From: Azolla caroliniana
Lineage: Eukaryota > Plantae > Polypodiophyta
Length of the DNA: 64,000 nucleotides
Direction: 5' to 3'
Assembly: GCA_043228905.1 (NCBI GenBank)
Contig: JBHGNT010000020.1
Span: 3,844,001-3,908,000 of the forward strand
Shown in pieces: positions 18,758 to 63,747 of the stretch (position 1 is its first letter; each line of letters begins with the position of its first letter). The position numbers and the translations under genes were made by a program. Below the pieces are notes generated by a model. The model searched no databases, was not told where the DNA came from, and worked only from the letters and a program-made list of their open reading frames with translations.

Positions 18758-18798
18758 CTCCAAGTATTAATCTTGACTTGATCCTTCCTACCGCCTCT

Positions 18799-19355: not shown

Positions 19356-19934
19356 TCCTTGTATATGTATATATGTATATATATTTATATATTTATTTAT
19401 GTAGTCGTCGGACGCCGGTTCGTCGGATGTCGTCGGTTACCGGTGCCTCGCCGGATGTTGGTGCCGTCACTCGATGCCGTCGCCTGTCCGGTTTTGGTTG
19501 CCCAAAACCCTTTATGAGTAGCTAGCCCACCTCCACTCTTAGTTCAAGTTACCTTGAACTCTCTATGCTCCACACATAGACACAAAGATAATATCTTTTG
19601 CTCCACCTTATATATGATGAGAGCCGTATTTGTCGTGCCTATGTGGGATATCTCACAATTTTCTCTTTTCCTTTCACAGACTTTATATCCTCATATCTTG
19701 ATATTTAGTTGTCCGTTTCTCGTGTAATAAAGTGCATTTGAAACCTCCATCATTTTGTACTTAGATATTAAATTTATTTAAAATGTTATCTTCACAATTA
19801 TTGTACTATGTGATTCATACTCGATTTCGTACGTTTTATGGGATTTTCACACTATTGCCGAAAACCTTCACGACAGCGCCTTTTACCGAGATGGATGAGC
19901 GATAATAAATGATCATGCCGCCAATTGACGGCAT

Positions 19935-26200: not shown

Positions 26201-28894
26201 ACTAACACGCGCTTGTTTGGTGCGAGGGTTATAGCACTTATAACCCTTCTGCTCATCCGAGTAACCGACCAAGATGCACTTCTCGGCCTTTGCGTCCAGC
26301 TTCCTCCTTTTCTCCTTCGGTATATGCATATACGCAATGCTACCGAACACCCTCACGTGTCGTAAGTTCGGCTTCGTTCTGAAGTATAGCTGGTGTGCTG
26401 ACACCTTGTCTCCGATCCGGTTCTAGATGTATACCGCGGTCCTTACCGCCTCGGCCTAGTAGAACTTGGGCAAGCTCTTCTCCTCCAGCATTGCCCGTGC
26501 TGCTTCCACAACTGACCGATTCTTCCTCTCGGCCACGCCGTTCTGCTCTGGCGTGTATCTACAACTGAATTCGCGGCGAATTCCCATTTGTTGTAGATAA
26601 CCGTTGAATTGACCGGAAAAGTACTCTTTTCCGCCATCCGACCGCAGGCACTTGATCTTCCGTCCTGTTTCCATTTCCACGAACCCTTTGAGGTCATGGA
26701 AACAGTCAAAGACTTCGCTCTTCCTCTCAATGAGGTAGATCCACGTGTGCCGCGTGTGGTCGTCGATGAAGGAGACGAAATATCGGCTCCCGCCAAGACT
26801 AACGTTTTGTGGTGGCCCCCACACATCGGAGTGTATAAGGTCGAGCTTGTTCCGGCTCCGGTTCCGCTCGTTGGGGAAAGGAAGTCGGTGTTGCTTCCCG
26901 AGTTGGCAGGCTTCACAAATTTGTACCTTTCGGCCACTAAATTTGGGCAATCCGAACACTACCTGTTTCGATTGCATATCTTGAAGCCACTAGTAGTTGA
27001 TGTGGCCTATCCTCTTGTGCCACAAGTCGATGTCCGACTCAGTCTTTTGTCCCTTCGCGAACATTGCGGTGCCGCCGTCAGTGGAGTCGAGGATGAACAT
27101 CCTCCCATCTCTGCGCCCTTGCGCAATCACACGGCCTTCTTCCTCAATGAAGCACCCGAGGTGTGTAAACCGAACCTCCATCCCTTGGTCAACGATCTGT
27201 CCGACCGAAACCAGGTTTTTCGTGATTGTCGGAACGTGCAGCACGTTCATGAGTTTCCCTTTCTGCCCGACATGGCTAAGGGGAACTTCTCCAACATTCG
27301 CGATCGGATGCGGAGTGTCGTCTCCTGTTGCGACTACTCCAGGTTGTATCGGTTTTTCAAGGTACGAGAACCACTCCTTATGGCTCGTCATGTGGTTTGA
27401 CGCGCCGGAGTCTACGTACCACACCTCTTCCGATCTCGGGGTGGTCTGTTTCATTGAGTTTGCTTCGTGTCTCGTCACGAAGGCAGTCCCTTCTCCGACT
27501 CTTCCAGAGTCTTCGGCGTAGTGCGATCGCTGCCGATTTCCCTTGTCTGTATGTCTGGAGCCGCTCCCGGAACCAGTTCTCTCCGAATCGGCGCGCTTCT
27601 TCCAGCACTCACTTTCCCTATGGCCTTTCTTGCCACAGTGCCAGCACTCCGCGATGGACTTCCCTTGCCGGTTCTCATCGCTTTGACTCCCCCTATTTCC
27701 GAAGGGTCCGGAGTTGCTGTCGACATCACTTCGGTGCCTTCTTCCCTGATCTCGTCGGCCGCCTCCATTGCGCGCCGACTCGCCTCATCCTCCACGTCCA
27801 CGGGGCCTATCTCCCTCCGTGTACAGCATTCTACTGTCGGTGTGCGTTCTTGTAGACGCACCCGCGTGGTTCTCCTCTACCAGGAGCATTGACTGTAAGT
27901 CGAAAAAGGACGGCGTATTCTCCCGGGTACACACAGCCGTTCGGAACGCTCCGAACTTCGACGCCAAACCTCTGAGACAGATCTGGACCATCTCACTCTC
28001 CTCAATGTTCACCTCTATGGAGGCGAGGGAGTCGCAGATATCCTTGATCTTTGAGTTATAGTCCGCCACCGACAAGTCGCGTTGTTGTAGGTTGCTCAAC
28101 TCCTGTCGGAGCTGAAGCTTCCTGGCTGTGGTGCTCGCGGCGAAAATCTTCTTCAGATTTTCCCACGCACCCTTCGGCGTCTTTGCATCCCTAACATAGC
28201 TCAATAGCTGTTCACCCACACACGACGCAAAGCAGTATAATACCCTGCTCGCCGATTGCTCCCACGACGGGAAGTCTCTGTGTGTCGATTCGGGTGCCGC
28301 GTCATTAGCTCCTTCGACATAACTCCAGTAGTCGTGCCCGAGCAGGTACTGGTGCATCTTGTAGGACCAAGACGCATAGTTGGTTCTGTCGAGCTTCTCT
28401 GTTGGAAGCGAACTCGCCATGCCTCTATCCATCGTTCTTCTCGTTCTTCTTCGTCAAGCTGTGTCGGCTGCAGAGAGGTTCTCAACCCTCGCGCTCTGAT
28501 ACCATGTAGAAAGTAGCGTGCGGAAGCAGGTATGAAGACCGAACAGAAGGAAGGAAACTCAGGTTCAATGGAGGGCTTGAGCTTACACGGTATACGCAGG
28601 AGAGACAGAGAGAGTGAGAGAAGACAAAAAATAGATTCAATAATAATACTCAGTCTGTACATAAGACGTGCTCAATGAACACTTTTATACAAGTCCTAGA
28701 AGGACTGACTGAAGTACTGACAGTACTTCAATGCTCATCAAGAGCTCCTACACAAACTCCCAAATATATTCCTCACGGAATATCTTTCCTAACGACCTCC
28801 CGGTTTACGCACTCGGCCTAACCGATCGGTCCCAACCGATCTGGTCCTCGACTTCTTCAGCCGATCCGGCCGATGTTGAGCTTGTCTCTCAACA
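23223..28894 (-). mobile_element. Full-length decayed Ty1/Copia: LTRs 23223-23614 and 28505-28894, TSD ACATT, tRNA-iMet PBS
   Basis: TG...CA LTRs differing by ~13 substitutions and one 2-bp indel; PBS TGGTATCAGAGC (28493-28504); PPT next to the 3' LTR; gag, CCHC, DSGAS protease, integrase, RT (LLYVDD) and RNase H with stops and frameshifts. Confidence 0.97.
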
Positions 28895-45917: not shown

Positions 45918-48182
45918 TGTTGAGCGGCAAGCTCAACCGGAGCCGGATCGGCTGAATAAGCCGGAGCCGGTAAGCGAGATGGATCGGGCGAAACGGATCG
46001 GTATGACGGTGAGCAACCAAACCGGCAGGTAGTGGAGGCCGGCTGCAATCCGTAACCGGCAGTCCAATCAGAAGCCTAGTATAGGATAGACTACTAGGTA
46101 GCTATAGTCTCGTAGTAAGTGTCAGATGCTCGTGTGAGCATTGGAGTACATGGTACTTCTGTCAGTCCCAAGAGGACTTGTATAAATAGTGCTACTTAGC
46201 ACAGTGTGTATACAGACAGAGTCTTGATATAATTTTGAAATTACGTTCTGCTCTCTCTCTCTCTGTTGTTCTCTATTTTACGCTTCCGCAAACACTCACC
46301 TTGACATGGTATCAGAGCGCGAGGGTTGAGAATCTCTGCTGCAGACATTTACTCTTGAGAAGAAAACCCTAACAGGTCGAAAACAGACACAGTATAAGAC
46401 ATGGATAGAGGCATGGCTACGTCGCTCCCGGTGGAGAAGCTCGACAGGAGCAACTACGCATCCTGGTCTTACAACATGCACCAGTACCTGCTTGGACACG
46501 GGTACTGGAGTTATGTCAAAGGAGCGAATGATGCGGCGCTAGACTCGGCACACAAGGACTTCCCGGTATGGGAACAGGCGGCAAGGAGGGTGATGTACTG
46601 CTTCGCGTCCAGTGTCGGCGATCACCTGCTCAGCCACATCCGTGATGCCAAGACACCGAAGGATGCTTGGGGGAACCTGAAAAAGGTTTTCGCTGCAAGC
46701 ACCACTGCCCGGAAGCTGCAACTCAGACAGGAGTTGAGCAATGTTCGACAGAAGAACATGTCCGTGGCAGACTACACGGGCCGGATAAAGGAGATCTGCG
46801 ACTCGTTCGCCTCTATCAATGTTACCGTAGAGGAAGACGAGATGGTGCAGGTATGTCTCGGAGGCCTGGCGTCCAAGTTCGGAGCGTTCCGGACTGCGGT
46901 GTGTACAAGGGAGAATACCCCCTCATTCTTCGACTTACAGTCGATGCTCCTTGTAGAGGAGAACCACGCCGGTGCATCTACCACTGCATCCCCGGACAGC
47001 CGAATGTTGTACACGGGAACGGATCGGTTCCGTGGGTGTGGTGGAAGAGGTGGGTCGGCACACAATGGAGGTGGCCAGCAAGAGCAGGAACGGAGGCACT
47101 ATGAGCATGCCGACAGCAGTTCCGGGACTTCCACAAGCAGGGGGAGTCAAGGCGGTGTCAGAGGCCGGCAAGACAAATCCGCTACGGAATGCTGGTACTG
47201 TGGCAAAAAAGGCCACAGGGAAAGTGAGTGCTAGAGAAAGCGTGCCGATTCGGACAAATCCGGATCCGGCAAGACCGGTAAGGATGGCCGGCAAAACTCG
47301 CACTACGCAAACGGATCAGGAGGATCCGGAACCGGAAAGGCCGGTAAGGGGCCAACCTTGGTGATGAATCACAAGGCAAACTCAATGAAGAAGACCACTT
47401 CCAAAACGGAGGAAGTGTGGTATGTTGATTCCGGCGCGTCGAACCACATGAAGAGCCACAAAGAGTGGTTCTCCTTTCTGGAGAAACCGGATCAACCAGG
47501 AGTAGTCGAAACCAGAGACGACACTCCTCACCCAATCGTGCACGTCGGAGAAGTCCCTCTAAGCCACGTCAGACAGAAAGGGAAGCTAATGAACGTATTA
47601 CACGTTCCGACAATCACGAAGAACCTGGTGTCCGTCGGTCAGATTGTCGACCAGGGGATGCAGGTGCGGTTTACGCACCTCGGGTGCTTCATTGAGGATG
47701 AGGGCGAAGTCATTGCGCAAGGGCGCAGAGACGAGAGGATGTTTATCCTTGACACCAATGACTTTGGCACCGCTCTGTTCGCGAAACGACAGAAGGTCGA
47801 GTCCGACATCGACCTGTGGCACAAGCGGATAGGCCACGTCAACTACCGGAGGCTTCAAGACCTGCAAACGAAACAAGTCGTTTTCGGTTTGCCGAAGTTC
47901 AGCGGCCGGAGAGCCGAAATCTGTGAAGCCTGTCAACTTGGGAAGCAACACCGGCTTCCATTCCCCACCGAAAGGAACCGGAGCCATAACAAGATCGATC
48001 TCATCCGTTCGGATGTGTGGGGACCGGCACAAAGTATAAGTCTTGGCGGGAGCCGATACCTCGTCTCCTTCATCGACGACTGTACTCGACATACTTGGAT
48101 CTACCTCATTGAGCGGAAGAGCGAAGTCTTCGACTGTTTCCGAAGCCTCCAGAAAATGGTGGAACGGGAATCGGAGAGGAAG
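45918..48182 (+). mobile_element. 5' half of a Copia related to 23223-28894: LTR 45918-46306, iMet PBS 46307-46318, gag-protease-integrase start; interrupted in integrase
   Basis: MDRGMATSLP gag, CWYCGKKGHRESEC then premature TAG, VDSGASNH; homology to VEMETGRK|IKCLR stops at VERESERK (48182). Confidence 0.93.
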
Positions 48183-48433
48183 GGGTAAAAGCATGCGAGT
48201 GGAAACACTATTATAGCTAATTAGCTACTAAAATGGCCATAGCTAATTAGCTATTTGTTTAGCTAGTCTTTTTTGTGGGAAAATCAAATATTTGAAAAAC
48301 TAATTTATGAAAAAACTCAAATATTTGAACTTCTGTTTCAGACGTAGTGGAACTTGGGGAATATCACCATCATCTAAGGTCGACTTCAATGTCATCAATT
48401 TCCTGTTTAGCCTAAGTCTGATTTTGAACGCAG

Positions 48434-51400
48434 ATGGAGTACTCAGAGCACGAACGCAGACGTAGCTCCCGCAACAGCAAAAAATCGACATTGCAGATTG
48501 AGAGCTACAACACAGAACCCGCTCGATCATCGTCCAGGTATGTTTCAGTTACAGAAACCCCAAACATTTGTTTTTTCTTTTTGACTACTGTCTGAACTTT
48601 GGTGCCGATTCATATTTCCCCAAAATCGAATAGGGCGAAGTCCTTGGAGTCCCATACAAGGATGTCTCGCAAATCAGGGAGTAGCAATAGGTGTGTTTAT
48701 ATTACTTTTTTTGTGTTTAATCCTGTCTTTAGTGATGATTGGGGTTTCTGATTGAAATTTCTGATTAGGGTTTTTGTTTATAAATTTCTTATTAGAATTT
48801 CTGATTAGGGTTTGTGATTGAAATTTCTGATTAGGGTTTGTGATTGAAATTTCTGATTAGGGTTTTTGATTATAAATTTCTGATTAGAATTTCTGAATAG
48901 GGTTTCTGGTTACAAATTTTGATTACAAATTAGAATTTCTGATTAGGGTTTTTGTTTATAAATTTCTGCTTAGGATTTCTGATTAGGGTTTGTGATTGAA
49001 ATTTTTTATTAGGGTTTCTGATTGAAATTTCTGATTAGGGTTTTTGATTATAAATTTCTGATTAGAATTTCTGAATAAGGTTTCTGGTTACAAACTTCTG
49101 ATTACAGATTTTGATTAGGGTTTCTGATTTCAAACTTCTGATTACAGATTTTGATTAGGGTTTCTGATTTCAAATTTCTGAATACAAATTATGATTAGGG
49201 TTTCTGATTTGCTAAGTTAAAGATTTTGCACCATTTTTGTTGTTGTTGATTGGGGTTTTTGATTCTCACATATTCTGATTTTGCACTATTTCTGATTTCT
49301 GAAATGATATTTCAGATGGCTCGTTCCTCCGTATACGAGAGTGCTAAACTTCGCAAAATTTTGCGAGACAATGGAGGACTTCCACAACACCTATGGTCTG
49401 TCACTCGAGGGTGTTGACCCTGCTGTCCTAAGTGATAAATTGATCAATGATATAGACTGGATGACAGTATATACAGTGCCTAGAGTCAAAGGCAAGGTCA
49501 AGCTGAAGCATGTACGAGCCGACTTGTACGATGACTGCATGAGACTGCACCAGAAAGTTCATCAGGAGATCCCAGTCAACAATGAGTTGTCAGTTTCATT
49601 TGCTAGAGCATTTGCATATGAGTACTGCAAAACAGCGAAGGAATCGAGAGACCCCGAAATGTATAGGGTAGCTTGGGCAGTCTATGGTGAGGCATCGGTA
49701 AAAAGATGCCGAAAGATGGGGACCTTGGCACAAAAAATAGACAGATTTTGGAGCATGGCAGCTGTTGATGCAACTGCCGACTCCCAGCAAGACCGGGGGC
49801 ATACACCACACCGACACCCAAGGAAAGCCAATGTCAATGATACAGGTGAGACATTGGTTAGCTATATGCTAAAAAATGTCCATGAAGCCTGTGAGACATT
49901 GGCATTTTTTAAGACTGATTTAGAGAAAGCCACAATGGCTTCTGCAATGGAGAGCAAAGTTACTTCTGCTGTTACAACAATTAGAAATAAGATTCAGGTA
50001 ACTATTGTTTTGCTGGTATGTGATTGTGTTATAAATAACGGGTAAAATGTGCTAATCAAGCATTATCTGGAATAGGTTGCGCAACAGGAGCTTGAATTAG
50101 AGGGGCCACTGGATCCCCAACGTAAAATAGAACTGCAAATAGAGATCCAGGTTCTTTCAATGAACCTGGACCTTCTAGGTGTAAATACTGTTGCAGATTA
50201 CAATTTGGATAAGCTTCAAGTAAGTTAACGATTCCTGAGCAAAGTTGGTGTATCTTTCAACAACAAGAATAATTAATCGGTAAATTTCTCTGTTGCGTTG
50301 AAGGAACAATACATTCATCAAGAACAGGTAGTTAGCTGCCTTAAGAAGAAGCTACATTTTGTGGAGGGAATGGTAAGGACCAGACAGGATTTGGACCTGA
50401 ACATTCTTGCTCCCTTACCAAATGAAGTAGAACCAGAAAATGATTTATTGACAGTTCAAGCACGTTGCATCGCTTGCGGGTTAGGTGTGGAGGACAAAAT
50501 TGCGTCTTTGTTGGTTCACCTACAACCATGCAACCACACATACCATCTGCTTTGTTTTCAACATGCCTGTCGAATTGCTGCATTCTATTTGGGAGATTGC
50601 AGTACAACTCTACCAAATGAGTGGAGAAAACTAACAGGTATACCATACTGTAGCTAATAAGCTTAGTCTTTTCTAATTAGCTATCCTACTAGCTAATTAG
50701 CTACTGGCAGCTAATGAGCTACTAGCTAATTAGCTATCCTAGTAGCTAATTAGCTATGGTACTAGCTAATTAGCTAGTACCATAGTTGTGTAAAAAAGCT
50801 AAATAGCTATCCTACTAGCTAATTAGCCACTGGCAACTAATTAGCTATCCTAGTAACTAATTAGCTACTGCCATAGTTGTGTAAAGTAGCTAATAAGCTA
50901 TCCTAGTAGCTAATTAGCTATGGTACTAGCTAATTAGCTAGTACCATAGTTGTGTAAAAAAGCTAATTAGCTATCCTACTAGCTAATTAGCTACTGGCAA
51001 CTAATTAGCTACTATGATAGCTAATTAGCTATCCTAGTAGCTAATTAGCTACTAGCAACTAATTAGCTATCCTACTAGCTAATTAGCTATCATAGTAGCT
51101 AATTAGCTACTGACATAGTTGTGTAAAGTAGCTAATAAGCTATCCTAGTAGCTAATTAGCTACTGGCAGCTAATTAGCTATCCTAGTAGCTAATTAGCTA
51201 CTGGCAGCTAATTAGTTGTCCTAGTAGCTAATAAGCTATCCTAGCTACTACATAGTTGAGAAAGTAGCTAATTAGCTATCCTAGCTAGCACCATAGTTAG
51301 TAAAGTAGCTAATTAGCTATCCTAGCTACTACCATAGTTAGTAAAGTAGCTAATTAGCTATCCTAGCTACTACCATAGTTGAGTAAAGTAGCTAATTAGC

Positions 51401-52089
51401 TATCCTAGCTACTACCATAGTTGAGTAAAGTAGCTAATTAGCTACCATAGTAGCTAATTAGCTATCGTACTAGCTAATTAGCTATCCTAGCTTCTACCAT
51501 AGTTTAGTAAAGTAGCTAATTAGCTATCCTAAATAACTGTCATGTTATTGTAGAATCTTGTGGATTAAGGACGGCACATGATGTGTCTGGTGCTGATGAT
51601 GCTGCAACAGATGAGGATACTACTGCCAATGTGGCTGAAAGTAAGAGTCCTGCTATCACATCTCCTTCAGATCAGCTGCACCCTATTCTTTTGGAACAGT
51701 GTACTGAATTAGGCAACGATGTGAAATGCCATGAAATAGTGGAAACAACATGTAAAACTGAGGTTCACAACAACAGTGTTTATGAACACTTGATGCAACA
51801 TTTCTTCGAGTCTCAAGACCTTGATTCCACCCCACCGAGCCCAACTACTGAAAATGTCCAAACAGATCCCTTTGTACTTGAAAAGCTAGTTCAAGAAACG
51901 GCTGATGTGCAATTAGCTGTTGAGGCGATGGGAAGGTTGTCGGAGGAGGACACACTTGCGCATTGGGTCCTAGAAGCAAGGCTAAATGGGGAACCAACCA
52001 GAAAAAGGCTGAAGAAGGGGCCACGATCGGGAACAAGACCAGTTACTCGGTCAAGGGGCCCAGACGTAGTGGAGCGAAATACTGTTTAG
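48434..52089 (+). CDS. Accessory gene isoform A (599 aa): exons 48434-48537, 49316-49997, 50076-50219, 50304-50637, 51554-52089; coiled-coil + RING-H2-like + acidic tail with basic NLS-like patch
   Basis: Four GT-AG introns with matching phases, 1800 nt, no internal stop; CIAC-x15-CNHTYHLLC...YLGDC; RKRLKK near the end. Confidence 0.72.
48740..49260. repeat. Intronic degenerate tandem repeat (~26-40 bp units) with about 11 telo-boxes
   Basis: Units such as tttctgattagggtttctgattgaaa; TTAGGGTTT is the reverse complement of AAACCCTAA. Confidence 0.85.
50650..51530. repeat. Intronic array of the palindrome TAGCTAATTAGCTA
   Basis: Roughly 35 copies by eye inside intron 50638-51553. Confidence 0.95.
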
Positions 52090-52338
52090 TTGGATATGAT
52101 TGTTAGCTTAGGGATTTTGCTAGGGTTTTATGAAGTTTTACTATCCTGTTGGACAAGTAAAACCTCAGATTGGTTGTTGCTTGATCCACATTATGTAATG
52201 GAACTCTATGATGTTTTTCCAAGATAATTTGAAGAGTGTTGTTCTATGACTGAAACTCTTTGATGTTCAGGATATTGTTTTGTGAGACTATTAGTTACTT
52301 TGTGAGTGTGAATATGTTGGTGTTTTCTGATGTTGCAG

Positions 52339-53393
52339 AGTCTAAAGGGTTTGATTCTATTGCTCGTAAGGCCAATGGCAGTGTGGATACTGTTGATGTT
52401 GCGGCATGTTTAAAGGGCCCCATCTTGAAAGTAGATGTAGCAACTGACACAAGTGATCTGGTCACACAAGTTGATCAAGCATGTAGCACGGATGACTTGG
52501 TGTTGCAGGTAGATGCAGCATGTAGCACGGATGACTTGGTGTTGCAGGTAGATGCAGCATGTAGCACGGATGACTTGGTGTTGCAGGTAGATGCAGCATG
52601 TGATACCAGTGGACTGATATCGAGCAGATCAGTAGCTACATGCACTGAGGTAATCCAAGGATTGATAACTAAGTCGACAAAACAAGAGCACCAGAATGTG
52701 AAGCTAGGCCCAACACAGTCGACTAGGGGTTTAAAGAGGAAAAGGACACCAGTTGTGTCAGCCGAACCTGAGCTGATTGAGATTGATCATATCCTACCAG
52801 AAAATGGTGTAACAGCGGCTCAGTTTCAGGAATGGAAACCTAAACCACTAGAAGTCGAAAGAAGAGCCTTGATCTTGGAGCTTGATAAAGTCTTGATGAG
52901 TGTGAGATATATGCAGCCAAGGAGGGACGCAAATCAGTTTCTAGAGTGGGTTGTGGAATACTTTGATTTGTTTATTTGGAGTGAAAAACCAAAATCAGAT
53001 GTGTGGAAGTGTTTGGAAAGATTCTTCCCAAAATGGCGAAGTCGTTTTAAAGGTCAATGGGCACGAGAAAATTGTGAGCAAATGGAAGCTGCAAGATTCA
53101 AGAGACTTTCTGATTTTTGGGCTACTTGGCCTGAATATAATGCCGACAATACATTGATTTTGGATACAGAACATTTCCGACACTACTTCAATATTCGGAG
53201 ATGCTGTCTCATTCTACCCGAGGAAATGCCTGAACAGTACCTGGTGCAAATAGTGAGCTGCCAACTAGGTGCATGGTTGTGGACTCCATACCGAGCTCAA
53301 TATGCGGATAATATATGTAGACTCGTTCCACTGACTAGCAAGAGCTTAGCTGTTTATAGGAGATTTGTAGACATTTCCAATGGTAATTTATAA
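52339..53393 (+). CDS. Terminal exon encoding an FCP1/NIF-like HAD-fold domain, probably spliced to the RING gene (isoform B, 801 aa)
   Basis: ALILELDKVL..RRDANQFLEWV.EYFDLFIWS..WARENC..FKRLSDFW..NTLILDT follows the NIF motif order; acceptor ttctgatgttgcag is phase 1, matching donor AA|GTAAGA at 51640/51641. Confidence 0.65.
52479..52600 (+). repeat. Coding 39-bp tandem repeat (CSTDDLVLQVDAA x3)
   Basis: gcatgtagcacggatgacttggtgttgcaggtagatgca repeated three times identically. Confidence 0.95.
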
Positions 53394-53740
53394 ATATGTA
53401 AAGAGATGACATTATTCAATGAAGAATTTAATTACTTGTTCCCACTGTACTTATCTACTGTGTAATTTGAGGAATATGTTGCAGATTGTTGATTTCATTC
53501 TATTGATGACTATTTAGCTATTGACAGCTAATTAGCTGCATTTGTACAGCTAATTAGCTACTGATGACTATTTCGCTATAACTTATAACTTAAAACTTAA
53601 CAAAAAAGACATGATTTTATTGAGAAAGAAGCACAGAAAGCAGACTGTATACAAGAAATTGATTCCAAACGAATTTATTTAACTGTTTTCGCGAAATACA
53701 TGTTTGTTTTACAAGAGAACATGGTAAGTGCTACTTGTAG

Positions 53741-56700
53741 CTACAAATTCCATGGCATACTATTGTAAATACATTCATACACATTAGCACCAACAGTGTA
53801 TAAACCGGAGCAGCTATTGTATTCTGACATTGGGACGTTGATGCATCTGACCAAATGAGAGTACATATACGCCGTTGGTTTGTCTTCTAACAGCCTGTAC
53901 ACATATTCGTAGTCATCTAGTTTTGCATAAAAAATGCCTTCGATGTAGAATGTCCCGGCAGATACAAAATTTCCCCATGCATCTACAATATTCTGCCTTG
54001 CACACTGTTTACTAACCGTGCACTTTAATATATAGAAATCAGCACCCTCTGAATTGCCTTCTTCAGCATTTACAGCGAAGTTATCCCCAACGTTCAGGAC
54101 ATCACTCAAAGTATCTCCAAGTCCCTCATATGTGAAGTCAGCATTCTGCCATGTTTCTCCATCAACTGCTTCCTTATCATTCAGAGTGTGATACTCCCAA
54201 TTCTGAATGTATGCTTTGTTTAGACAATATCTCCAATTTCCCTGCACACAATGGAAGCAAAAACAAGTCAATTCTCTAACCGCAATACAATGACCATCCA
54301 ACCTGGAATAACTGCGAACAGCATGCAGAGATCGCAATTCGGGAATTCCTTGGCACTCCCAGGTCTTCTCCCTATTTACTTCATCTATCTTCACTTCCCA
54401 AAATTCACGTTTGATATCTCGGACTTGCGAGGAATAAACACCTGTGGCACTCGTTGACATATTTGTTCTTAAAAATTCAACTACATGTGATGCACAATTC
54501 ATGTGCACACCATCTGTCTTTAGTTGTTCATGGGTAAGTGCCCGCTTTATAACAGCCCCTGCACCATCATGTTCACCTTTACCATGGCCAGACCCAAAAA
54601 AATTCCATCTCATCTCCAAACCTGTTATAGCAGGATACCTCCCCACAAAATAAAATGGACGTCGAGCCTTGAATTGTGGCGCAGCTCCGTCAGACCAGAC
54701 CCAATGTTGAGTAAGCTCCAAACGTTGAGCTAATAACCACTGCCAATGTAACTTAAAACAGTGTTGGACGAACAAGGTATCATGCTTCTTATCATCGGAA
54801 ATAAAGAAATGAATTACTTTTTTAACATCACCTGAAACTCGAAAATATGTTATGTGCACAAAAATGGTTACCTGAACTGAACACCAATGCATAGATTGAA
54901 TTTCATTCTGCTGCTTGAAAGTATAATTCTCTGCGAAATCTACTACTGAGACTACTACATCATTTGGGAAATCAGATATGCAAGTCTTAAACTGATGGGC
55001 CTGCCATGAATAAATGAAGTTGTGTTTAATGAACTTTCCTAGAGATACTACAAACAGAGACACCAAATCCCTTGGTTTAAGCATCTTCCGAACTAGATCC
55101 TTTCTTTTACACACCTTTCCTTCGAAATTGGTGTTCACTGACTCAAATAACTTCACAGAGATCAATATTTCACTACTCAATTCATTTGGACACCACCTAA
55201 ATCTAGTAGGGCCACAATCTTGACATAAACCCATGACACATTTATGAATATGGAAGATAGCGTCAGTTTCTCTCGGACACAATATTGAATCTAATAAATA
55301 ACTCATGGAAGAGATAACGTGCTCAGATGATTTACACTCCTCTTGGGGGCTTGATCGACAGATTGGGCACCCACATGTGCAAACTGTATTAGTTAGGGAT
55401 GCGCTATGGTGACGTAGTAGATTAACAGAGTCCTTCAGAAAACCCATCTGTACATGGTAAATGCAACAACATGTGTATCGATCCTTTAAGCGTCTCACAA
55501 AGTGTGGCTTAAGAGACTCGAATGTTCGTAGTTGAACTTTGATAGTTGGATGCATTCGTTTGAACCTAATAAATAAATCGACCTGCGTAATAAAGGGGAA
55601 TTAGTTATTCTCGTAACTAGCTAACTATCCTAGTAGCTAATTAGCTATTCTAGTAGCTAGTTAGCTATTCTAGTAGCTAATTAGCTATCATGGTAGCTAA
55701 TTAGCTGTCCTAGTAGCTAATTAGTTGTCCTAGTAGCTAATTAGCTATCATGGTAGTTAATTAGCTGTCGTAGTAGCTAATTAGCTATCATGGTAGCTAA
55801 TTAGCTATTCTAGTAGCTAATTAGCTATTCTAGTAGCTAATTAGCTATCATGGTAGCTAATTAGCTGTCGTAGTAGCTAATTAGCTATCATGGTAGCTAA
55901 TTAGCTGTCCTAGTAGCTAATTAGTTGTCCTAGTAGCTAATTAGCTATCATGGTAGCTAATTAGCTGCTCTAGTAGCTAATTAGCTATCATGGTGGCTAA
56001 TTAGCTTTCCTAGTAACTAATTAGCTATCATGGTAGCTAATTAGCTTGTCTAGTAGCTAATTAGCTATCATGGTGGCTAATTAGCTTTCCTAGTAACTAA
56101 TTAGCTATCATGGTAGCTAATTAGCTGGTCTAGTAGCTAATTAGCTGGTCTAGTAGCTAATTAGCTGGTCTAGTAGCTAATTAGCTATCATGGTAGCTAA
56201 TTAGCTGGTCTAATAGCTAATTAGCTTTCCTAGTAACTAATTAGCTATCATGGTAGCTAATTAGCTGGTCTAGTAGCTAATTAGCTATCATGGTGGCTAA
56301 TTAGCTGTCCTAGTAACTAATTAGCTATCATGGTAGCTAATTAGCTGGTCTAGTAGCTAATTAGCTATAATGGTGGCTAATTAGCTATCCTAACTAATTA
56401 GCTATCATGGTGGCTAATTAGCTGTCCTAGTAACTAATTAGCTATCATGGTAGCTAATTAGCTGGTCTAGTAGCTAATTAGCTATAATGGTGGCTAATTA
56501 GCTACCCTAACTAATTAGCTATCATGGTAGCAAATTAGCTGGTCTAGTAGCTAATTAGCTATCACGGTGGCTAATTAGCTATCCTAGTAAGCTAATTAGC
56601 TATCATGGTAGCTAATTAGCTTTCCTAGTAGCTAATTAGCTGGTAATAACGAAATAACAAACTAGCTACCATGATAGCTAACTAGCTTCCAGTACAACTA

Positions 56701-57859
56701 ATTATCTGGTAGTACCTAAATTAGCTATTGAGAATAGCTAATTAGCTATCATGGTAGTAGTTATTGAGAGTAGCCAGTTACCTATGTAGTAGCTATCATA
56801 GTAGCTAATTAGCTATCATGGTAGCTAATTAGCTTTCCTAGTAGCTAATTAGCTGGTAATAACGAAATAGCTAACTAGCTACCATGATAGCTAACTAGCT
56901 AGCAGTACAGCTAATTATCTAGTAGTACCTAAATTAGCTATTGAGAATAGCTAATTAGCTATCATGGTAGTAACTATTGAGAGTAGCTAGTTACCTATGT
57001 AGTAGCGATCCTAGTAGCTAACTGAGGTAAATGTAACTGATAAGCTAATTAGCTTTTCTGCTAACTGAGCTAATTAACTTTCCGAGTAGAGTCAAAACAA
57101 ATGTTGAGATAAATGTAAATACCTGAGGTACATCAAGAAGATGAATGGGATGCTCCTCGTATTGATTTCTTCCAACACGTTTCCTGCATAAATCCTTTTT
57201 ATTGGGTGAAACCCTACTCTCATTAGTCCAAAACATTGTGATTACATCCTTGATTTCAAATGTTATGGGTGTCATTGGCTTACATCTTGTAGTTAGCTTT
57301 AGTAGACTAGTTCCTTCACCCGAGGAAATTATACGGTTCATTGTATTGTACACTGTTTTTCTACTAACACCAATTACCTTAGATAGCTCACTGATGTTTA
57401 TATCGTCAACATCACTATTAAGTAACATCATTAGACTAGACCTTTTTAAGACAAGATCATCTTCTGACCTGCTCATGGATACGAAACTATTACGAAGATT
57501 ATTTACTAAAATAGATGATATGTTTGCATTAAGACCATCACAATCAACTAAGTCCTTTATCGATGGATCATTACATATTCCATAAAGTACTACCTTCTTT
57601 TCTTCATTGCTGATGTGCTTGGTTTGAACATTGAAATAGTCTACAACCTTTCTCTCTATGATGGTAGTCGCATTACTTACATTCTCAGCTAAACTATCCT
57701 TACCTTTACTGAGTGTGGCTTTCGTATCCTTCAACAATTGACGATGTTTCTTTTTTTTTCTGCCCAATAGTTTCGTATGGCTTGTTGTGTCCTGATAACA
57801 TCATACCTATCCTTATGATCATTGAGGGGTAATTCTAAACACCCTTCTTCCCCTTCCAT
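53741..57859 (-). CDS. Sola2-like DDD transposase, 2 exons (57859-57123, 55582-53741), ~859 aa once a 1-base slip at 57751-57759 is corrected
   Basis: VVDFAENY..QNEIQSMHW, ISDDKKHD, WSDGAAPQFK, FFGSGHGKGEHDGAGAVIKR; Cys-rich blocks CCCIYH and CFCFHC; intron CAG|GT(57122)...CAG(55583)|GTC joins DVPQ-VDLFIRFKRMHP in frame. Confidence 0.85.
55615..57075. repeat. 20-bp-period array of the palindrome TAGCTAATTAGCTA filling the transposase intron, ending in a ~213-bp higher-order duplication
   Basis: About 50 phased units t(a/g)gtagctaattagctNNNN between 55615 and 56640; tggtaataacgaaata at 56641 and 56854. Confidence 0.97.
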
Positions 57860-58312: not shown

Positions 58313-61300
58313 TGTTGCACACAGTGCTCGGTCACAACCGAGGAATAGGATCAACTCACAGAAAACGGGAAATACAAAGTGCACGAGGACAATAGAGAGA
58401 AGAGTACACAGGTTGTTTTACGTGGAAAACCCTAAATGGGAAAAAACCACGGGAGTCCTCAAACTCCAACTATCACTATAAACAGAGATGTACAATGGTG
58501 AAGCTACAAGGCAACAACCTTGAGCTCACTGTCTTCGCCACAGGCGGCGGTAATACACAGAGGCAACGACCTCTTCGTCTCTCTCTCTCTCTCACTCTCT
58601 CTCTCGGCTGCTCTCACTTCGCTCCCTCTAAGTGAGCACAGAAAAATGAGCAACAACTACTAAACTGTTTGCCCTAAGTCATATTTATACACATATGACT
58701 TTCGGGCTATTTACAAATATAGCCTCAAGGGCTCTTGGCAAACATATTCACAAATATGTCCCCGCATCCGGATCTCTCTCCGGGTACATTCGTCATCCGG
58801 CTCCGTAGCCGGGGTCTTCATCATCCGGCTCCGTAGCCGGGGTCTTCATTCCCGATTCCCGGACATCCGACCATCCCATCCGGAGGGACCGTAATCCCAA
58901 CAAACTCCCCCTTCACTTCGGCATGGGATATCTCTCCAATCCGACCCTCTTCCGGCATGCTTCCAGCTTGTCGGGTGTGAGCACCTTGGTCAGCATATCC
59001 GACCCGTTCTCGTCCGTGTGGATCTTCGTCAGCACGAACTCCTTGTCTTCTATCCTTTCCCGGATCCAGTGATATCTTCGCTGGATGTGCTTCGTCCGGG
59101 AGTGATAGGCCGCGTTCTTTGCAAGGTGGATGGCACTCTGACTGTCGCAGTAGAGTCGGTACTCCTCCTGCCGGATACCGAGCTCTCTAATGAAGTCCTT
59201 CATCCATGTTATTTCCTTGCCGGCTTCAACAGCCGCCATGTACTCCGCCTCCGTGGTTGACAACGCAACCGTCTTCTGCAGCCTCGACTGCCACGACACC
59301 GCTCCCCCTGCATACGTCATCACATACCCTGATGTGGACCGGCTGGTATCTGCATCAGCCGACATATCCGAATCGGTAAAGCCGTCGAGTTCGGGCTTAC
59401 CGGAGCCGAATCGGAGGCACACGTTTGCCGTGCCCTTCAGGTATCGGAGTATCCACTTGACCGCGTTCCAGTGCTCTTTGCCGGGATTGCTCATGTACCG
59501 GCTCACCACTCCGACTGCATATCCTATGTCCGGTCTTGTACACACCATTGCGTACATCAAGCTTCCGACGGCAGAGGCATATGGTACTTTCATCATGTCC
59601 TCCTTCTCAGCCTTTGTCTTGGGGCTTTGCTTGCTGGACAATTTGCAGTTTGTCGGGAGGGTTGACCCGACCGGTCTTGCTTCCGACATGTTGAACCGGT
59701 GAAGCACCTTTGTCACGTACTTCTCCTGTGACAGCCACAACTGCTTCTTCTTCCGGTCCCGGATGATGTGCATCCCTAGTATTTGCCTCGCCGGACCCAG
59801 GTCCTTCATTGAGAAAGTTCGGTGAAGCGCTTTCTTTAGCATCCGTATCTTGGCCTGGTCCCGTCCGACGATCAACATGTCGTCCACGTACAGGAGGAGT
59901 ATTAGAAAGTCTCCTCCTTCGAACTTCTTCACAAACACGCAGTGATCGGACTGCGTTTTGTGGTACCCTTCGTCGGTCATGAAAGAGTCGAACTTCCGGT
60001 ACCATTGCCGGGGAGCCTGCTTCAGTCCGTAAAGGCTCTTCTTCAACCGCCACACCAGGTGCTCCTTCCCTTTCTTCTCGAATCCTTCTGGTTGCTGCAT
60101 GTAGATCTCTTCTTCGAGGTCACCGTGAAGGAATGCCGTCTTCACGTCCATCTGTTCTACCTCGAGGTCCATGCTTGCCGCTATGCTCAACACCGTCCGG
60201 ATGGAGGTCATCTTCACTACCGGGGCAAATATCTCGTCGAAGTCGACACCCTTCTTCTGCTGGAACCCCTTCACCACGATCCTGGCTTTGTATCTCGGGG
60301 GGTTTCCGGCATCTCCCGGTTTCAGCTTGAACACCCACTTGTTTCGAAGTGCCCGCTTTCCTTTCGGCAACTCCACAAGTTCATATGTGTGGTTCTCATG
60401 CAGGGAATCCATCTCCTCCTGCATGGCACTTAACCACCTGCGGCTATGTGTGTCAAGCTTTGCTTCTTCAAAACTCTCCAGCTCCCCCTCGTCGGTTAGC
60501 AGCACGTGCTCTGGTTCCGGAAATCTCCGGGGGGCCCTTCTCTCTCTTAGAGGATATCTCCGTTCCGGAGCTTCGGTAACCGGCTCCTCCGTTTCCTCTT
60601 CATCCGAATCCATTTCGGGATCGGGGCCGGTTCCGGTATCAGTTTCATCTTCCTCGGCCGGTTCTGTTTCTTCACCGTCTTCGGCCGGATCCTCGAGTGC
60701 TAACCGGTCCCTTGCCGGTCGGGACTGCTCCTCGTAGAGTTGATCCTCACCGGTCGACTTGGAGCTCTTCATCTTCTTCTCCAACTCCCAGTCGGCGAGT
60801 GTCTTGTCCTCCATGAAGACGATATCTCGACTCCTGAATATCTTCTTGTCGACCGGGTCCCATACTCGGTAGCCGAACTCGTCGTCGCCGTAACCGAGGA
60901 ATATGCATGGTCGGGTCTTTGGATCTAACTTTCCTCTCCGGTCCTTTGCCACATGCACGTATGCGAGACACCCGAACACCTTCAGATGCCGGTAGGACAC
61001 TTCCTTACCAGTCCACACTTTCTGCGGCGTGTCTCCGTCCAAAGGTACTGAGGGTGATCTATTTATCACATACGTCGCCGTCGACATTGCCTCAGCCCAA
61101 AATCCCTTGGGTAATTTTGCATGTGCTAGCATACTCCGGACCCTCTCCATTATGGTCCGGTTCATCCTCTCGGCCAGCCCGTTCAGTTCCGGCGTCTTCG
61201 GCACAGTAAACTCGAGCCGGATTCCCTTCGAGCGACAGTACTCTGCGAACTGCCCCCGGTATTCCCCTCCGTTATCCGCTCGTATCGCTTTCAGCTTCTT

Positions 61301-63747
61301 GCCGGATTCTCTTTCCACTCTCGCGTGGAGTTCTTTGAAGACGGACAATACTTGGTCCTTTGTCTTCAACGGTGCCGTCCACAGCTTCCGGCTATGGTCA
61401 TCTATGAATGTTACGAAGTACTGAGCTCCGCCATGTGACTTCGCTTCTACCTGACACACATCAGTGTGTACCAACTCCAATGGTGCGCTACGTCTCGTCG
61501 GCGGCCTTGAGTGGAAGGAGGTCCGGTTTTGCTTACCGGCCAGACAGTCGGTACACTTCCCCAGGTGTACGTGCTTTACCGGTATCAGGTTGTCTTCGGC
61601 AAGCCTCTTCATCCCCTTCTCGCTCATGTGGCACAGTCTCTTGTGCCACAACTCACCGGTAGTGTCAGCTGCCACGTTCAGCTCCTCCGGACATAGCCGG
61701 GAATTCATCAGGTACAATGTGTTGACCTTCCGGGCCCGAGCCACTATCAGGCTCCCTTTGCTGAACTTCATGACGCCGTTCCGGATGCTACCCGTGTAGC
61801 CTTCATCGTCTAGCCTCCCGGCCGAAATCAGGTTCAATCGAACCTCCGGAACGTGTCGAACATCCTTCAGCAGCATCTTGCATCCGGTTGATGTCATCAG
61901 CCACACGTCTCCTATGCTGGCAATCCGGCATGTACCTTCATTTCCCATCCGGACACAGCCGTGCTCACCGGCTGTGTAGGATGAGAAGTATTTCTTCTCC
62001 GGGGTCAGGTGGAACGACGCTCCGGAATCGACCACCCAGGTCATCTCTTCACCGGCAAGGTTCAGCTCCCTCTCTTCGGTAATGAGCATTATCTCTTCTT
62101 CACTTGCCGCGAGTGCCGTCGTTCCTTTCCGGTCCTGCCCTCGCCGATCCGGACCTCTCTGGTCCGCGGCTCCCCGGTATGCACCGTTTCGCTCCGGTGA
62201 CTTCTTCGAATCGGTACCGTCGGTTCCGTTGTCTTTCCGGAAATGCCGACAGTTCTTCTGGAAGTGCCCCGGCTTCCCACAGTAGAAGCATGTAGGTCTT
62301 CCCCTCGACTGCGACCGTGTCCCCGACTTCTCCCGTCTTTGCGGACTTCGGTTCCGTTGTCTTCCCCGTTCCGATTCGGTAAGCAGCGCCTTTGAGTCAG
62401 AGGCCGGTTCTTTATCTCTCCGACGCGCTTCTTCATTTAGAATACTTGTCTTTACCGTTAGTAAAGACAAGTTCTCTTCCTTACAGGAGGTGCTGAGTGT
62501 AACTACCAAGTTCTCCCAGCTCTCCGGAAGGGTACACATCAGCATGATGGCTTGCATTGCGTCATCCAACGGGAACTTGATCGCCGCAAGCTGGTTCACG
62601 AATCCCATGAACGTGCTGACGTGTTCGACCATGCTCTCGCCGTCCCGGTACTTAAGATTCACTATCTTCCTCATCAGGGAGGTCCGGGTCAGAGCATTCT
62701 TCCTCTCATACAGTCCGGACAGCTTCTGCCACATCTCATAGGCGTTCGTATCGTTCGCCACATGTTGCAGGACACTTACATCGACATATTGCCGGATCGT
62801 TGCTACGGCTTTCCGGTTCAGGAGCTTCCACTCCGACTCTATTACTCCCTTGGGTATCTCGGCATTGTCGATCGGTTCGTACAGGTCTCGGACGATGAGA
62901 AGGTCTTCCATCTTTATCTTCCAGTCGGCGTAGTTCTGTGAGTTCAACACCATCATGCCCGGAGGCCCACTACCGCCGCCTTCCATTTTCTGTGTTACCA
63001 TCGCTCTGATACCACTTTGTTGCACACAGTGCTCGGTCACAACCGAGGAATAGGATCAACTCACAGAAAACGGGAAATACAAAGTGCACGAGGACAATAG
63101 AGAGAAGAGTACACAGGTTGTTTTACGTGGAAAACCCTAAATGGGAAAAAACCACGGGAGTCCTCAAACTCCAACTATCACTATAAACAGAGATGTACAA
63201 TGGTGAAGCTACAAGGCAACAACCTTGAGCTCACTGTCTTCGCCACAGGCGGCGGTAATACACAGAGGCAATGACCTCTTCGTCTCTCTCTCTCTCTCAC
63301 TCTCTCTCTCGGCTGCTCTCACTTCGCTCCCTCTAAGTGAGCACAGAAAAATGAGCAACAACTACTAAACTGTTTGCCCTAAGTCATATTTATACACATA
63401 TGACTTTCGGGCTATTTACAAATATAGCCTCAAGGGCTCTTGGCAAACATATTCACAAATATGTCCCCGCATCCGGATCTCTCTCCGGGTACATTCGTCA
63501 TCCGGCTCCGTAGCCGGGGTCTTCATCATCCGGCTCCGTAGCCGGGGTCTTCAGCATCCGGCTCCGTAGCCGGGGTCTTCAGCATCCGGCTCCATAGCCG
63601 GGGTCTTCATCATCCGGCTCCGTAGCCGGGGTCTTCAGCATCCGGCTCCGTAGCCGGGGTCTTCATCATCCGGCTCCGTAGCCGGGGTCTTCATTCCCGA
63701 TTCCCGGACATCCGACCATCCCATCCGGAGGGACCGTAATCCCAACA
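58313..63747 (-). mobile_element. Intact, very young Ty1/Copia (Tnt1/Tork-like): 3' LTR 58313-58902, 5' LTR 63018-63747, TSD AACAG
   Basis: aacag|TGTTG...CAACA|aacag; PBS TGGTATCAGAGC 63003-63014; PPT 58903-58912; LTRs differ by one substitution seen plus repeat copy number. Confidence 0.99.
58913..63001 (-). CDS. Copia Gag-Pol polyprotein, uninterrupted (~1362 aa)
   Basis: CFYCGKPGHFQKNC, VDSGASFH, integrase zinc finger and core (HTDVC, ADNGGEY, LAERMN), LLLYVDDMLI, RNase H. Confidence 0.98.
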   Translation of the reverse strand: MVTQKMEGGGSGPPGMMVLNSQNYADWKIKMEDLLIVRDLYEPIDNAEIPKGVIESEWKLLNRKAVATIRQYVDVSVLQHVANDTNAYEMWQKLSGLYERKNALTRTSLMRKIVNLKYRDGESMVEHVSTFMGFVNQLAAIKFPLDDAMQAIMLMCTLPESWENLVVTLSTSCKEENLSLLTVKTSILNEEARRRDKEPASDSKALLTESERGRQRNRSPQRREKSGTRSQSRGRPTCFYCGKPGHFQKNCRHFRKDNGTDGTDSKKSPERNGAYRGAADQRGPDRRGQDRKGTTALAASEEEIMLITEERELNLAGEEMTWVVDSGASFHLTPEKKYFSSYTAGEHGCVRMGNEGTCRIASIGDVWLMTSTGCKMLLKDVRHVPEVRLNLISAGRLDDEGYTGSIRNGVMKFSKGSLIVARARKVNTLYLMNSRLCPEELNVAADTTGELWHKRLCHMSEKGMKRLAEDNLIPVKHVHLGKCTDCLAGKQNRTSFHSRPPTRRSAPLELVHTDVCQVEAKSHGGAQYFVTFIDDHSRKLWTAPLKTKDQVLSVFKELHARVERESGKKLKAIRADNGGEYRGQFAEYCRSKGIRLEFTVPKTPELNGLAERMNRTIMERVRSMLAHAKLPKGFWAEAMSTATYVINRSPSVPLDGDTPQKVWTGKEVSYRHLKVFGCLAYVHVAKDRRGKLDPKTRPCIFLGYGDDEFGYRVWDPVDKKIFRSRDIVFMEDKTLADWELEKKMKSSKSTGEDQLYEEQSRPARDRLALEDPAEDGEETEPAEEDETDTGTGPDPEMDSDEEETEEPVTEAPERRYPLRERRAPRRFPEPEHVLLTDEGELESFEEAKLDTHSRRWLSAMQEEMDSLHENHTYELVELPKGKRALRNKWVFKLKPGDAGNPPRYKARIVVKGFQQKKGVDFDEIFAPVVKMTSIRTVLSIAASMDLEVEQMDVKTAFLHGDLEEEIYMQQPEGFEKKGKEHLVWRLKKSLYGLKQAPRQWYRKFDSFMTDEGYHKTQSDHCVFVKKFEGGDFLILLLYVDDMLIVGRDQAKIRMLKKALHRTFSMKDLGPARQILGMHIIRDRKKKQLWLSQEKYVTKVLHRFNMSEARPVGSTLPTNCKLSSKQSPKTKAEKEDMMKVPYASAVGSLMYAMVCTRPDIGYAVGVVSRYMSNPGKEHWNAVKWILRYLKGTANVCLRFGSGKPELDGFTDSDMSADADTSRSTSGYVMTYAGGAVSWQSRLQKTVALSTTEAEYMAAVEAGKEITWMKDFIRELGIRQEEYRLYCDSQSAIHLAKNAAYHSRTKHIQRRYHWIRERIEDKEFVLTKIHTDENGSDMLTKVLTPDKLEACRKRVGLERYPMPK

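What the first reader, a model, noticed from the sequence alone, without database searches (positions are those of the whole stretch)
48434..53393. Transposon accessory gene: RING-H2-like domain alternatively spliced to an FCP1/NIF-like pseudo-phosphatase
Seen: five exons splice in frame to 599 aa. A strong phase-1 donor (GAAA|GTAAGA, 51640) and a phase-1 acceptor (52338/52339) give a second open product of 801 aa ending in a NIF-like domain whose DxDxT motif reads ELDKV. The seventh RING ligand reads Tyr (TAT, one transition from TGT). Established: FCP1/SCP domains act on phosphorylated Pol II CTD and RING-H2 domains are E3 ligases. Inference: a catalytically dead phospho-substrate adaptor fused to an E3 ligase, possibly a TE-encoded transcription or anti-silencing factor, analogous in role (not sequence) to VANC or Harbinger accessory proteins.
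Basis: partly seen in the sequence, partly recalled or inferred. Interest (0 to 1): 0.8.

Follow-up and report, generated by a model that had tools for sequence, protein, structure and literature searches.

The report
Sola2 transposon RING-pseudophosphatase accessory gene
A multi-copy cut-and-paste transposon, probably from a fern, carries a second spliced gene for a RING zinc-finger protein that is predicted to be joined, by alternative splicing, to a likely dead phosphatase domain, and it would most plausibly act as a ubiquitin-ligase helper of the transposon.

Summary
The gene is real and transposon-borne. It faces a Sola2-type transposase inside a multi-copy element inserted into a Copia integrase.

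One intron is shown spliced out. The key 51640^52339 junction had no RNA cover and remains a prediction.

The RING Tyr is this copy's rare variant: Cys holds 98-99% of depth in two DNA runs. The NIF/HAD domain passes Pfam and fold tests, but reads ELDKV and DTEH and is about 20 residues short behind motif I, where SCP1's CTD pocket begins. It is likely dead, and nothing here supports Pol II CTD binding.

Six Adiantum gene models (about 26% identity) pair the same N-terminal domain with NIF, four of them also with the RING, so the architecture is old. The N-terminal domain folds confidently (pLDDT 94) with no solved relative found. E3 activity and anti-silencing are untested. My paper searches found no description of this accessory gene.

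The parts
48183..48230 (+). Left end of the element (GGGTAAAAGC...), followed by the GCTAATTAGC palindrome
   Evidence: Match to a second copy of the same Copia family ends at 48182 (junction uncertain by 1 nt). No inverted partner in the window.
48434..48537 (+). Accessory gene exon 1 (predicted ATG; Ser/Arg-rich)
   Evidence: Open frame and GT donor; this exon's own junction was not seen in RNA
48634..48690 (+).
   Evidence: Loose ends of RNA-type contigs X19 and X20 at the 49316 acceptor match it; in frame; GC 0.51 against 0.35 and 0.28 in the flanking introns
48736..49209 (+). Intronic tandem array (about 92-nt unit, TGATTAGGGTTT-rich)
49316..49997 (+). Exon 3: family-specific N-terminal domain (about 49350-49760) and start of a predicted coiled coil
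   Evidence: 135 representatives; AF2 pLDDT 94; covered by RNA-type contigs
50076..50219 (+). Exon 4 (predicted coiled coil)
   Evidence: Intron 49998-50075 skipped in X19 and X20, not in X15 or X11
50304..50637 (+). Exon 5: RING-H2-type finger C-C-C-H-H-C-(Y)-C at 50466-50600
   Evidence: 50587 A>G (Cys) in 99% (X15) and 98% (X11) of summed depth
50673..51531 (.). Intronic array of the GCTAATTAGC palindrome
51554..52089 (+). Exon 6: acidic tail ending in a basic NLS-like motif (RKRLKKG at 52000); candidate internal donor at 51641
   Evidence: Open and conserved in L001 and L002; dN/dS 0.52, p 0.011 for the part after the donor
52295..52338 (+). Conserved 44-nt block ending in the AG acceptor; contains the in-frame ATG at 52314
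   Evidence: 42/44 and 43/44 identical in L001 and L002, against 77-78% of aligned columns in the rest of the gap (block chosen after viewing the alignment)
52339..53393 (+). Exon 7: 13-aa repeats, basic motif LKRKR (52731), NIF/HAD domain with ELDKV (52878) and DTEH (53163)
   Evidence: dN/dS 0.37, p 5e-7 for the core
53741..55582 (-). Sola2-type transposase, catalytic exon (DFAENY 54940, SDGAA 54694, HDGAGA 54571)
   Evidence: Atlas neighbours 0.94-0.95
55599..57021 (.). Transposase intron array of the same palindrome
57123..57859 (-). Transposase first exon with HTH; frame broken in this copy within a T9 run (57751-57759)
58313..63747 (-). Young Copia inserted upstream of the transposase (AACAG on both sides)
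   Evidence: LTRs 99.8% identical over 536 nt

Best explanation
A multi-copy Sola2-type DNA transposon, probably of a fern, carries a second spliced gene facing its transposase, which encodes a family-specific domain and a RING-H2-type finger and is predicted to end either in an acidic tail or, by alternative splicing, in a likely dead NIF/HAD phosphatase domain, and which would most plausibly act as a nuclear ubiquitin-ligase helper of the element. Shown: position in the element, high copy number, splicing of one intron in a relative, purifying selection on both last exons, HAD fold, loss of catalytic motifs. Inferred: a coiled coil links the N-domain to the RING. Early polyadenylation after 52089 gives the short form, and splicing to 52339 gives the long form (from donor 51640, or straight from 50637). 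The dead HAD domain or the N-domain picks a substrate that the RING ubiquitinates, and the target is a host protein that restrains the element. My odds: accessory gene 0.95, fused RING-NIF protein made in this family 0.65, RING works as an E3 in intact copies 0.6, role in countering silencing 0.3. This copy is decaying (RING Tyr, transposase frameshift, Copia insertion).
For: Lies between the element's left end and a transposase with Sola2 motifs. 598 and 1837 contigs lay on exons 3-5 in two DNA runs. One X19 contig joins the NIF region (53039) to the transposase (54257) in a deleted copy of another organism. Intron 49998-50075 is skipped in 2 of 2 RNA-type and 0 of 2 DNA runs. dN/dS is 0.52 (exon 6 tail) and 0.37 (NIF core) against the 76%-identical copy L001, which keeps both acceptors and the GTAAGA donor. 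Of 135 N-domain representatives (49 of 250 aa or more), 12 match a RING profile and 6 carry NIF sequence, 4 carrying both (7 of the 12 and 4 of the 6 helped build the profiles). P0113 and P0163 pass the Pfam NIF cut-off on their own. The NIF-bearing rows fall in four separate well-supported groups of a quick tree. The 52090-52338 gap is intron/UTR-like (GC 0.34, T 0.42) with no TATA match.
Against: No RNA contig crossed 51640^52339, 50637^51554 or 50219^50304 (no cover). The Adiantum proteins are hypothetical gene models and may fuse neighbouring frames; P0113 and P0143 enter NIF through a stretch that reads like translated intron. The NIF frame has its own conserved ATG. The donor's conservation is confounded because it is also coding in the short form, and only two near-identical diverged copies were compared. 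The RING is under Pfam cut-offs and its last ligand pair is spaced x3. Linkage of the Adiantum homologues to a transposase could not be checked. L001 has unrelated DNA upstream of its repeat intron and no transposase match in the roughly 160 nt left downstream. No functional data.
Confidence: 0.5

Rival explanations
1. Two separate accessory genes in tandem: an N-domain/RING gene ending at 52089 and a stand-alone 359-aa NIF gene starting at ATG 52314, with no fused protein.
For: The ATG and MLVFS-x-VAES are kept in all 24 of 41 stored NIF proteins that reach that far. The conserved 44-nt block fits a coding start as well as an acceptor. No RNA junction was seen (no cover). Each last exon has its own basic NLS-like motif.
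Against: Only 224 nt between stop and ATG must hold a 3' UTR, promoter and leader, with no TATA match. The block ends exactly at a T-rich TGCAG acceptor in the phase of both upstream donors. P0163 and P0171 run RING to acidic linker to basic motif to NIF without a suspect stretch.
Confidence: 0.25
2. The protein is a transposition cofactor, not an anti-silencing factor. The N-domain and coiled coil would scaffold the transposase on the palindrome arrays, or the RING would control transposase turnover.
For: Facing-gene layout. All 73 GCTAATTAGC motifs of the window lie inside the element, in bins matching the terminus, introns and intergenic gap. Self-limiting or helper second proteins are common in DNA transposons (established knowledge).
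Against: Sola2 elements are described with the transposase alone or with unrelated passengers such as Fanzor1 (PMC3627910), so the cofactor is not generally required.
Confidence: 0.2
3. Passenger DNA: captured host RING and NIF fragments carried without benefit to the element.
For: dN/dS values are only moderately below 1 (0.37-0.64; two of four segments not significant). Catalytic residues are lost. Of 39 listed variants in exons 3-5, 25 are non-synonymous (a best-supported subset, 89 rows not shown).
Against: The same order of domains is kept at about 26% identity in several lineages. Frames are kept despite indels in L001. The N-domain is found with no Pfam family, and all 14 named relatives among 20 looked up are hypothetical Adiantum proteins.
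Confidence: 0.08
4. One reading: the dead NIF domain binds phosphorylated Pol II CTD and delivers the RING to the polymerase.
For: SCP2, SCP1 and Fcp1 are the top structural neighbours (Z 11.2-11.9, rmsd about 3, 135-137 aligned). Basic NLS-like motif before the domain.
Against: UBLCP1 ties within 1 Z and generic HAD enzymes follow closely; TIM50 tops Foldseek. The model spans 152 residues against 172 of SCP1, with the gap after motif I, where SCP1's pocket residues Phe106 and Val118 lie (PMC7281111).
Confidence: 0.1

Closest known systems
Sola2 DNA transposons (Repbase Sola2 families; DFa and PPa elements carrying Fanzor1)
   Same: Transposase motifs match the published Sola2 alignment (PMC3627910 supplement S10, part 1 of 2). 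Sola2 elements with a second captured gene are known. Sola repeats are listed for Ceratopteris (PMC6890710).
   Different: The passenger here is a multi-exon N-domain/RING/NIF gene, not Fanzor. TIR and TSD could not be checked, and the four bases before the end (GAAG or GGAA) are not the AT-rich type reported for DFa and PPa.
VANC anti-silencing proteins of VANDAL (MULE) elements
   Same: TE-encoded accessory gene; a short motif amassed as tandem arrays in introns, intergenic and terminal DNA; tandem peptide repeats in the protein (PMC5735166 passages).
   Different: No sequence or Pfam similarity seen, a different superfamily, and RING and HAD domains. DNA binding and demethylation are untested, and the arrays may simply be transposase sites.
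FCP/SCP (NIF) phosphatases: SCP1/2, Fcp1, UBLCP1, CTDNEP1; catalytically dead yeast Tim50
   Same: Pfam PF03031 above cut-off and HAD fold. Yeast Tim50 is a precedent for a dead NIF domain used as a binding module (PMC8346121).
   Different: Motif I is ELDKV (nucleophile Asp to Glu), motif IV is DTEH, and the insertion after motif I is short. Adiantum relatives read DLNG or DLNN and DDS instead, so different catalytic positions are lost in different lineages.
RING-H2 (C3H2C3) E3 ligases
   Same: Ligand order C-C-C-H-H-C-C-C in the family's majority form.
   Different: Last pair spaced x3 here and x4 in relatives; sub-threshold Pfam scores; activity untested; this copy has Tyr at ligand 7.

Membership tests
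Sola2 DNA transposon | DDD transposase with Sola2 motifs (C/H cluster, DFAENY, SDG, WNFF..HGKG..DG) | tested here: met
   By-eye match with the published alignment; positions. No Pfam hit; Atlas neighbours are unnamed or DUF7869 clusters.
Sola2 DNA transposon | Terminal inverted repeats | tested here: inconclusive
   Left end found; no partner in the window, other end likely beyond 64000; no match in viral or genome collections.
Sola2 DNA transposon | 4-bp target site duplication | not testable with these tools
   Right end not held; no genome available.
Sola2 DNA transposon | Interspersed multi-copy family | tested here: met
   598 and 1837 contigs laid in two DNA runs; 20 of 24 listed runs hold the stretch or part of it; insertion splits a Copia integrase.
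RING-H2 E3 ligase | Eight ligands C3H2C3 | tested here: met
   Met by the family's majority form (Cys in 98-99% of depth; Cys in 4 of 8 protein hits, Phe 1, Tyr 1, 2 out of frame there); not met by this copy.
RING-H2 E3 ligase | Pfam RING model above curated cut-off | tested here: not met
   Best 15.1 bits against 27; best relative 20 bits against 27.3.
RING-H2 E3 ligase | E2-dependent ubiquitin transfer | not testable with these tools
   Needs a bench assay.
FCP/SCP (NIF) phosphatase | NIF profile and HAD fold | tested here: met
   PF03031 32.1 bits against 21.8; Foldseek E 9e-5 to 1e-3 and Z up to 11.9 on a model of mean pLDDT 55.
FCP/SCP (NIF) phosphatase | DxDx(T/V) nucleophile motif | tested here: not met
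   First position is Glu in all 31 of 41 stored copies that cover it: ELDKV 29, EVDKV 1, ELDKI 1.
FCP/SCP (NIF) phosphatase | Motif IV acidic pair (DD) | tested here: not met
   DTEH in 31 of 41 stored copies, 10 do not cover it; DD in the Adiantum relatives and UBLCP1.
FCP/SCP (NIF) phosphatase | SCP1-type CTD-binding pocket (Phe106, Val118, Leu155, Tyr158, Arg178) | tested here: inconclusive
   Segment after motif I about 20 residues shorter; residues not mapped one by one; pocket list from PMC7281111.
VANC anti-silencing protein | Homology to VANC (DUF1985 domain, recalled) | tested here: not met
   No such Pfam hit for the window's exons or among the 25 families listed for 57 N-domain sequences.
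VANC anti-silencing protein | Short motif in tandem arrays in the element's non-coding DNA | tested here: met
   73 of 73 GCTAATTAGC lie inside the element.
VANC anti-silencing protein | Binds the motif and removes DNA methylation in trans | not testable with these tools
   Needs transgene, ChIP and methylome data.

The most novel reading that the evidence does not exclude
Fern Sola2 elements encode their own anti-silencing E3 ligase. A domain with no solved structural relative reads the element's GCTAATTAGC arrays, the RING ubiquitinates local silencing or chromatin proteins, and a choice of last exon adds or removes a dead-phosphatase reader module. This would be an anti-silencing system built from ubiquitin and phospho-signalling parts, evolved independently of VANC.
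Probability: 0.15. Interest if true: 0.85.

Novelty: new variant of a known kind. Interest (0 to 1): 0.58.

Why it matters
Plant Sola elements are barely described, and my ten paper searches returned no report of a RING plus NIF accessory gene in them; the library lacks most subscription papers and Repbase entries. The gene gives a function lead for many 'hypothetical' fern proteins, defines an unannotated, confidently folding domain, and offers a direct test of whether transposons outside VANDAL carry counter-silencing tools. That matters for explaining large, TE-rich fern genomes.

Tried and rejected
No genome is held for the window. The run search listed no RNA holder on record; this blank is no evidence on expression. 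X14 kept intron sequence, so it behaves as DNA. X19, X20 and X23 had no depth over 51535-51806 or 52215-52486. The spliced X19 and X20 contigs leave the window sequence at 50121, so the downstream joints stay open. My first splice script used 50305 by mistake and gave stops (corrected), and the new exon was first placed one base off (corrected).

The word-indexed search for longer N-domain proteins found none, but the HMMER search did. The Atlas gave only hits of 0.80 or less for the N-domain. Fold searches of the N-domain found nothing: best Z 2.6, Foldseek E of 3 or more in PDB and 0.8 or more in viral models; this does not prove a new fold. The idea that the N-domain is a plant mobile domain or Transposase_32 relative (recalled) got no Pfam support. 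phmmer of the NIF core against PDB found nothing, and the profile gave only UBLCP1 at E 0.57.

The left-end pattern was absent from viral and bacterial collections. The original Sola paper is not held. One supplement opened was the wrong file. The tree is the quick version, as the careful search did not finish; P0171 and other short matches were left out, leaving 92 rows. No complex was predicted. Earlier-findings searches returned nothing.
Full report
Setting. The window is a nest of plant retroelements. At 48182/48183 a Copia integrase is cut: identity to a second copy of the same Copia family ends there and GGGTAAAAGC begins. From there the inserted element holds a plus-strand spliced gene (48434-53393) and, facing it, a minus-strand transposase (57859-57123 and 55582-53741). 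The transposase has no Pfam hit. Its motifs match, by eye, the Sola2 alignment in supplement S10 of PMC3627910 (part 1 of 2 read), and its Atlas neighbours at 0.94-0.95 are unnamed eukaryotic clusters and a DUF7869 cluster. A young Copia sits upstream of it, and the far end is probably outside the window, so TIR and TSD are untested. All 73 GCTAATTAGC palindromes of the window lie within the element. Two DNA runs lay 598 and 1837 contigs on exons 3-5, so this is a repeat family, not a single-copy host gene. The host is probably a fern: all 14 named relatives among 20 looked up are Adiantum proteins.

Gene model. Contigs of two RNA-type runs from a related organism skip intron 49998-50075, which two DNA runs do not. 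The same contigs join the 49316 acceptor to sequence matching 48658-48687, which reveals a missed in-frame exon at 48634-48690 and gives 618 and 820 aa. They leave the window sequence at 50121, and no RNA-type contig covered the 51640 or 52339 sites, so the alternative splice is a prediction. A 791-aa form that skips exon 6 is also open, and the NIF frame has an in-frame ATG at 52314. In L001 and L002 (about 76% identical) both acceptors and the GTAAGA donor are kept, and the 44 nt before the NIF acceptor are 42/44 and 43/44 identical against 77-78% in the rest of the gap. That block fits either an acceptor or a separate start. Against L001, dN/dS is 0.52 (p 0.011) for the tail after the donor and 0.37 (p 5e-7) for the NIF core, but 0.54 and 0.64 and not significant for the two linker parts. 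Both last exons are therefore under selection as protein.

RING. The ligands run C-x2-C-x17-C-x-H-x2-H-x2-C-x10-Y-x3-C. Position 50587 reads G, giving Cys, in 99% and 98% of summed depth in the two DNA runs. Among 8 protein hits, 4 have Cys, 1 Phe, 1 Tyr and 2 are out of frame there. Pfam scores are under cut-off, but distant relatives keep the same pattern with a C-x4-C last pair.

NIF domain. It passes Pfam. A low-confidence model (pLDDT 55) matches TIM50, Fcp1, CTDNEP1, SCP2, SCP1 and UBLCP1. All 31 stored copies that cover motif I have Glu for the nucleophile Asp, and all 31 that cover motif IV read DTEH (41 examined), so catalytic death is likely, though untested. The stretch after motif I is about 20 residues shorter than in SCP1 or the Adiantum relative. 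SCP1's CTD pocket includes Phe106 and Val118, 10 and 22 residues after Asp96 (PMC7281111 passages). This weakens the phospho-CTD idea. Yeast Tim50 shows that a dead NIF domain can serve as a general binding module (PMC8346121 passages).

Is the fusion old? A HMMER search with exon 3 found 135 representatives. Six carry NIF sequence in the same protein and four of these also the RING; P0113 (MCO5553172.1) and P0163 (MCO5555562.1) pass the NIF cut-off. P0113 aligns to the long form at 26% in the N-terminal half and 29% in NIF. With the window these fall in four separate well-supported groups of a quick tree. They are automatic gene models: their joints may be wrong, but the order N-domain, RING, acidic linker, basic motif, NIF is conserved. 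Their NIF motifs read DLNG or DLNN and DDS. Most other representatives are single exons or partial models, so their lack of NIF says little.

N-terminal domain. It folds at pLDDT 94 with no match in PDB or viral models and no Pfam family. Its function is open; DNA binding to the arrays is a guess made by analogy.

Mechanism and comparison. I favour a nuclear E3-type helper with two last exons, the long one adding a dead HAD module as a substrate or partner reader. The layout resembles VANDAL/VANC, where a short motif builds tandem arrays in introns, intergenic and terminal DNA (PMC5735166 passages), but there is no homology and the arrays may be transposase sites. Sola2 elements with passengers are known (Fanzor1; PMC3627910 passages). 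Sola is noted in moss (PMC10741241 passages) and listed in Ceratopteris (PMC6890710 passage). PMC9587614 was seen in outline only and not used. The original Sola paper was not available. Ten searches (listings only, except the papers named) showed no report of this gene; Repbase entries and subscription papers may describe it.

Verdict. A real, conserved accessory gene of a Sola2-type element: a new variant of a known kind, interest 0.58. This copy is decaying, the alternative junction awaits RNA, and the function awaits assays.

Noticed in passing
window 57751-57759: The transposase's first exon changes frame within a run of nine T; a real lesion or a homopolymer error of the assembly.
   Followed up: partly
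window 58313-63747: Apparently intact young Copia (1380-aa ORF, LTRs 99.8% identical, AACAG duplication) inserted in the 83-nt repeat region upstream of the transposase; its two LTRs differ in the number of 28-nt repeats.
   Followed up: partly
window 46398-48182 and about 26600-28453: Two copies of one Copia family (82% identical over 433 nt); the first has a stop at 47232-47234 and is cut by the Sola2 element.
   Followed up: partly
window 11421-18766 and 19929-22389: Broken Ty3-type RT, RNase H and integrase frames with two RT-RNase H blocks (possibly nested), and a LINE-like endonuclease and RT.
   Followed up: no
window 49316-49417: A second frame at the start of exon 3 opens with ATG and runs 33 codons (MARSSVYES...); two of three listed variants there fall on its third codon positions. 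Possibly an overlapping upstream ORF.
   Followed up: no
runs X19 and X20, at window 50121: Spliced contigs in both runs continue into the same unrelated sequence, suggesting an expressed rearranged or interrupted copy in that organism.
   Followed up: no
run X19, joint 53039 to 54257: Deleted copy joining a frameshifted NIF region to the transposase 3' part, with 59 other letters between.
   Followed up: no
L001:1-778 and 2950-3109: AT-rich DNA unrelated to the window flanks the conserved part, with short TTGTTTTGAGTA repeats downstream; a nested insertion or a different element backbone.
   Followed up: no
P0159, P0162: N-domain plus RING found as single long frames on short contigs, suggesting intronless or transcript-derived versions in other plants.
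   Followed up: no
window 52478-52601: The 39-nt (13-aa) repeat in exon 7 varies in copy number between copies while keeping frame.
   Followed up: partly
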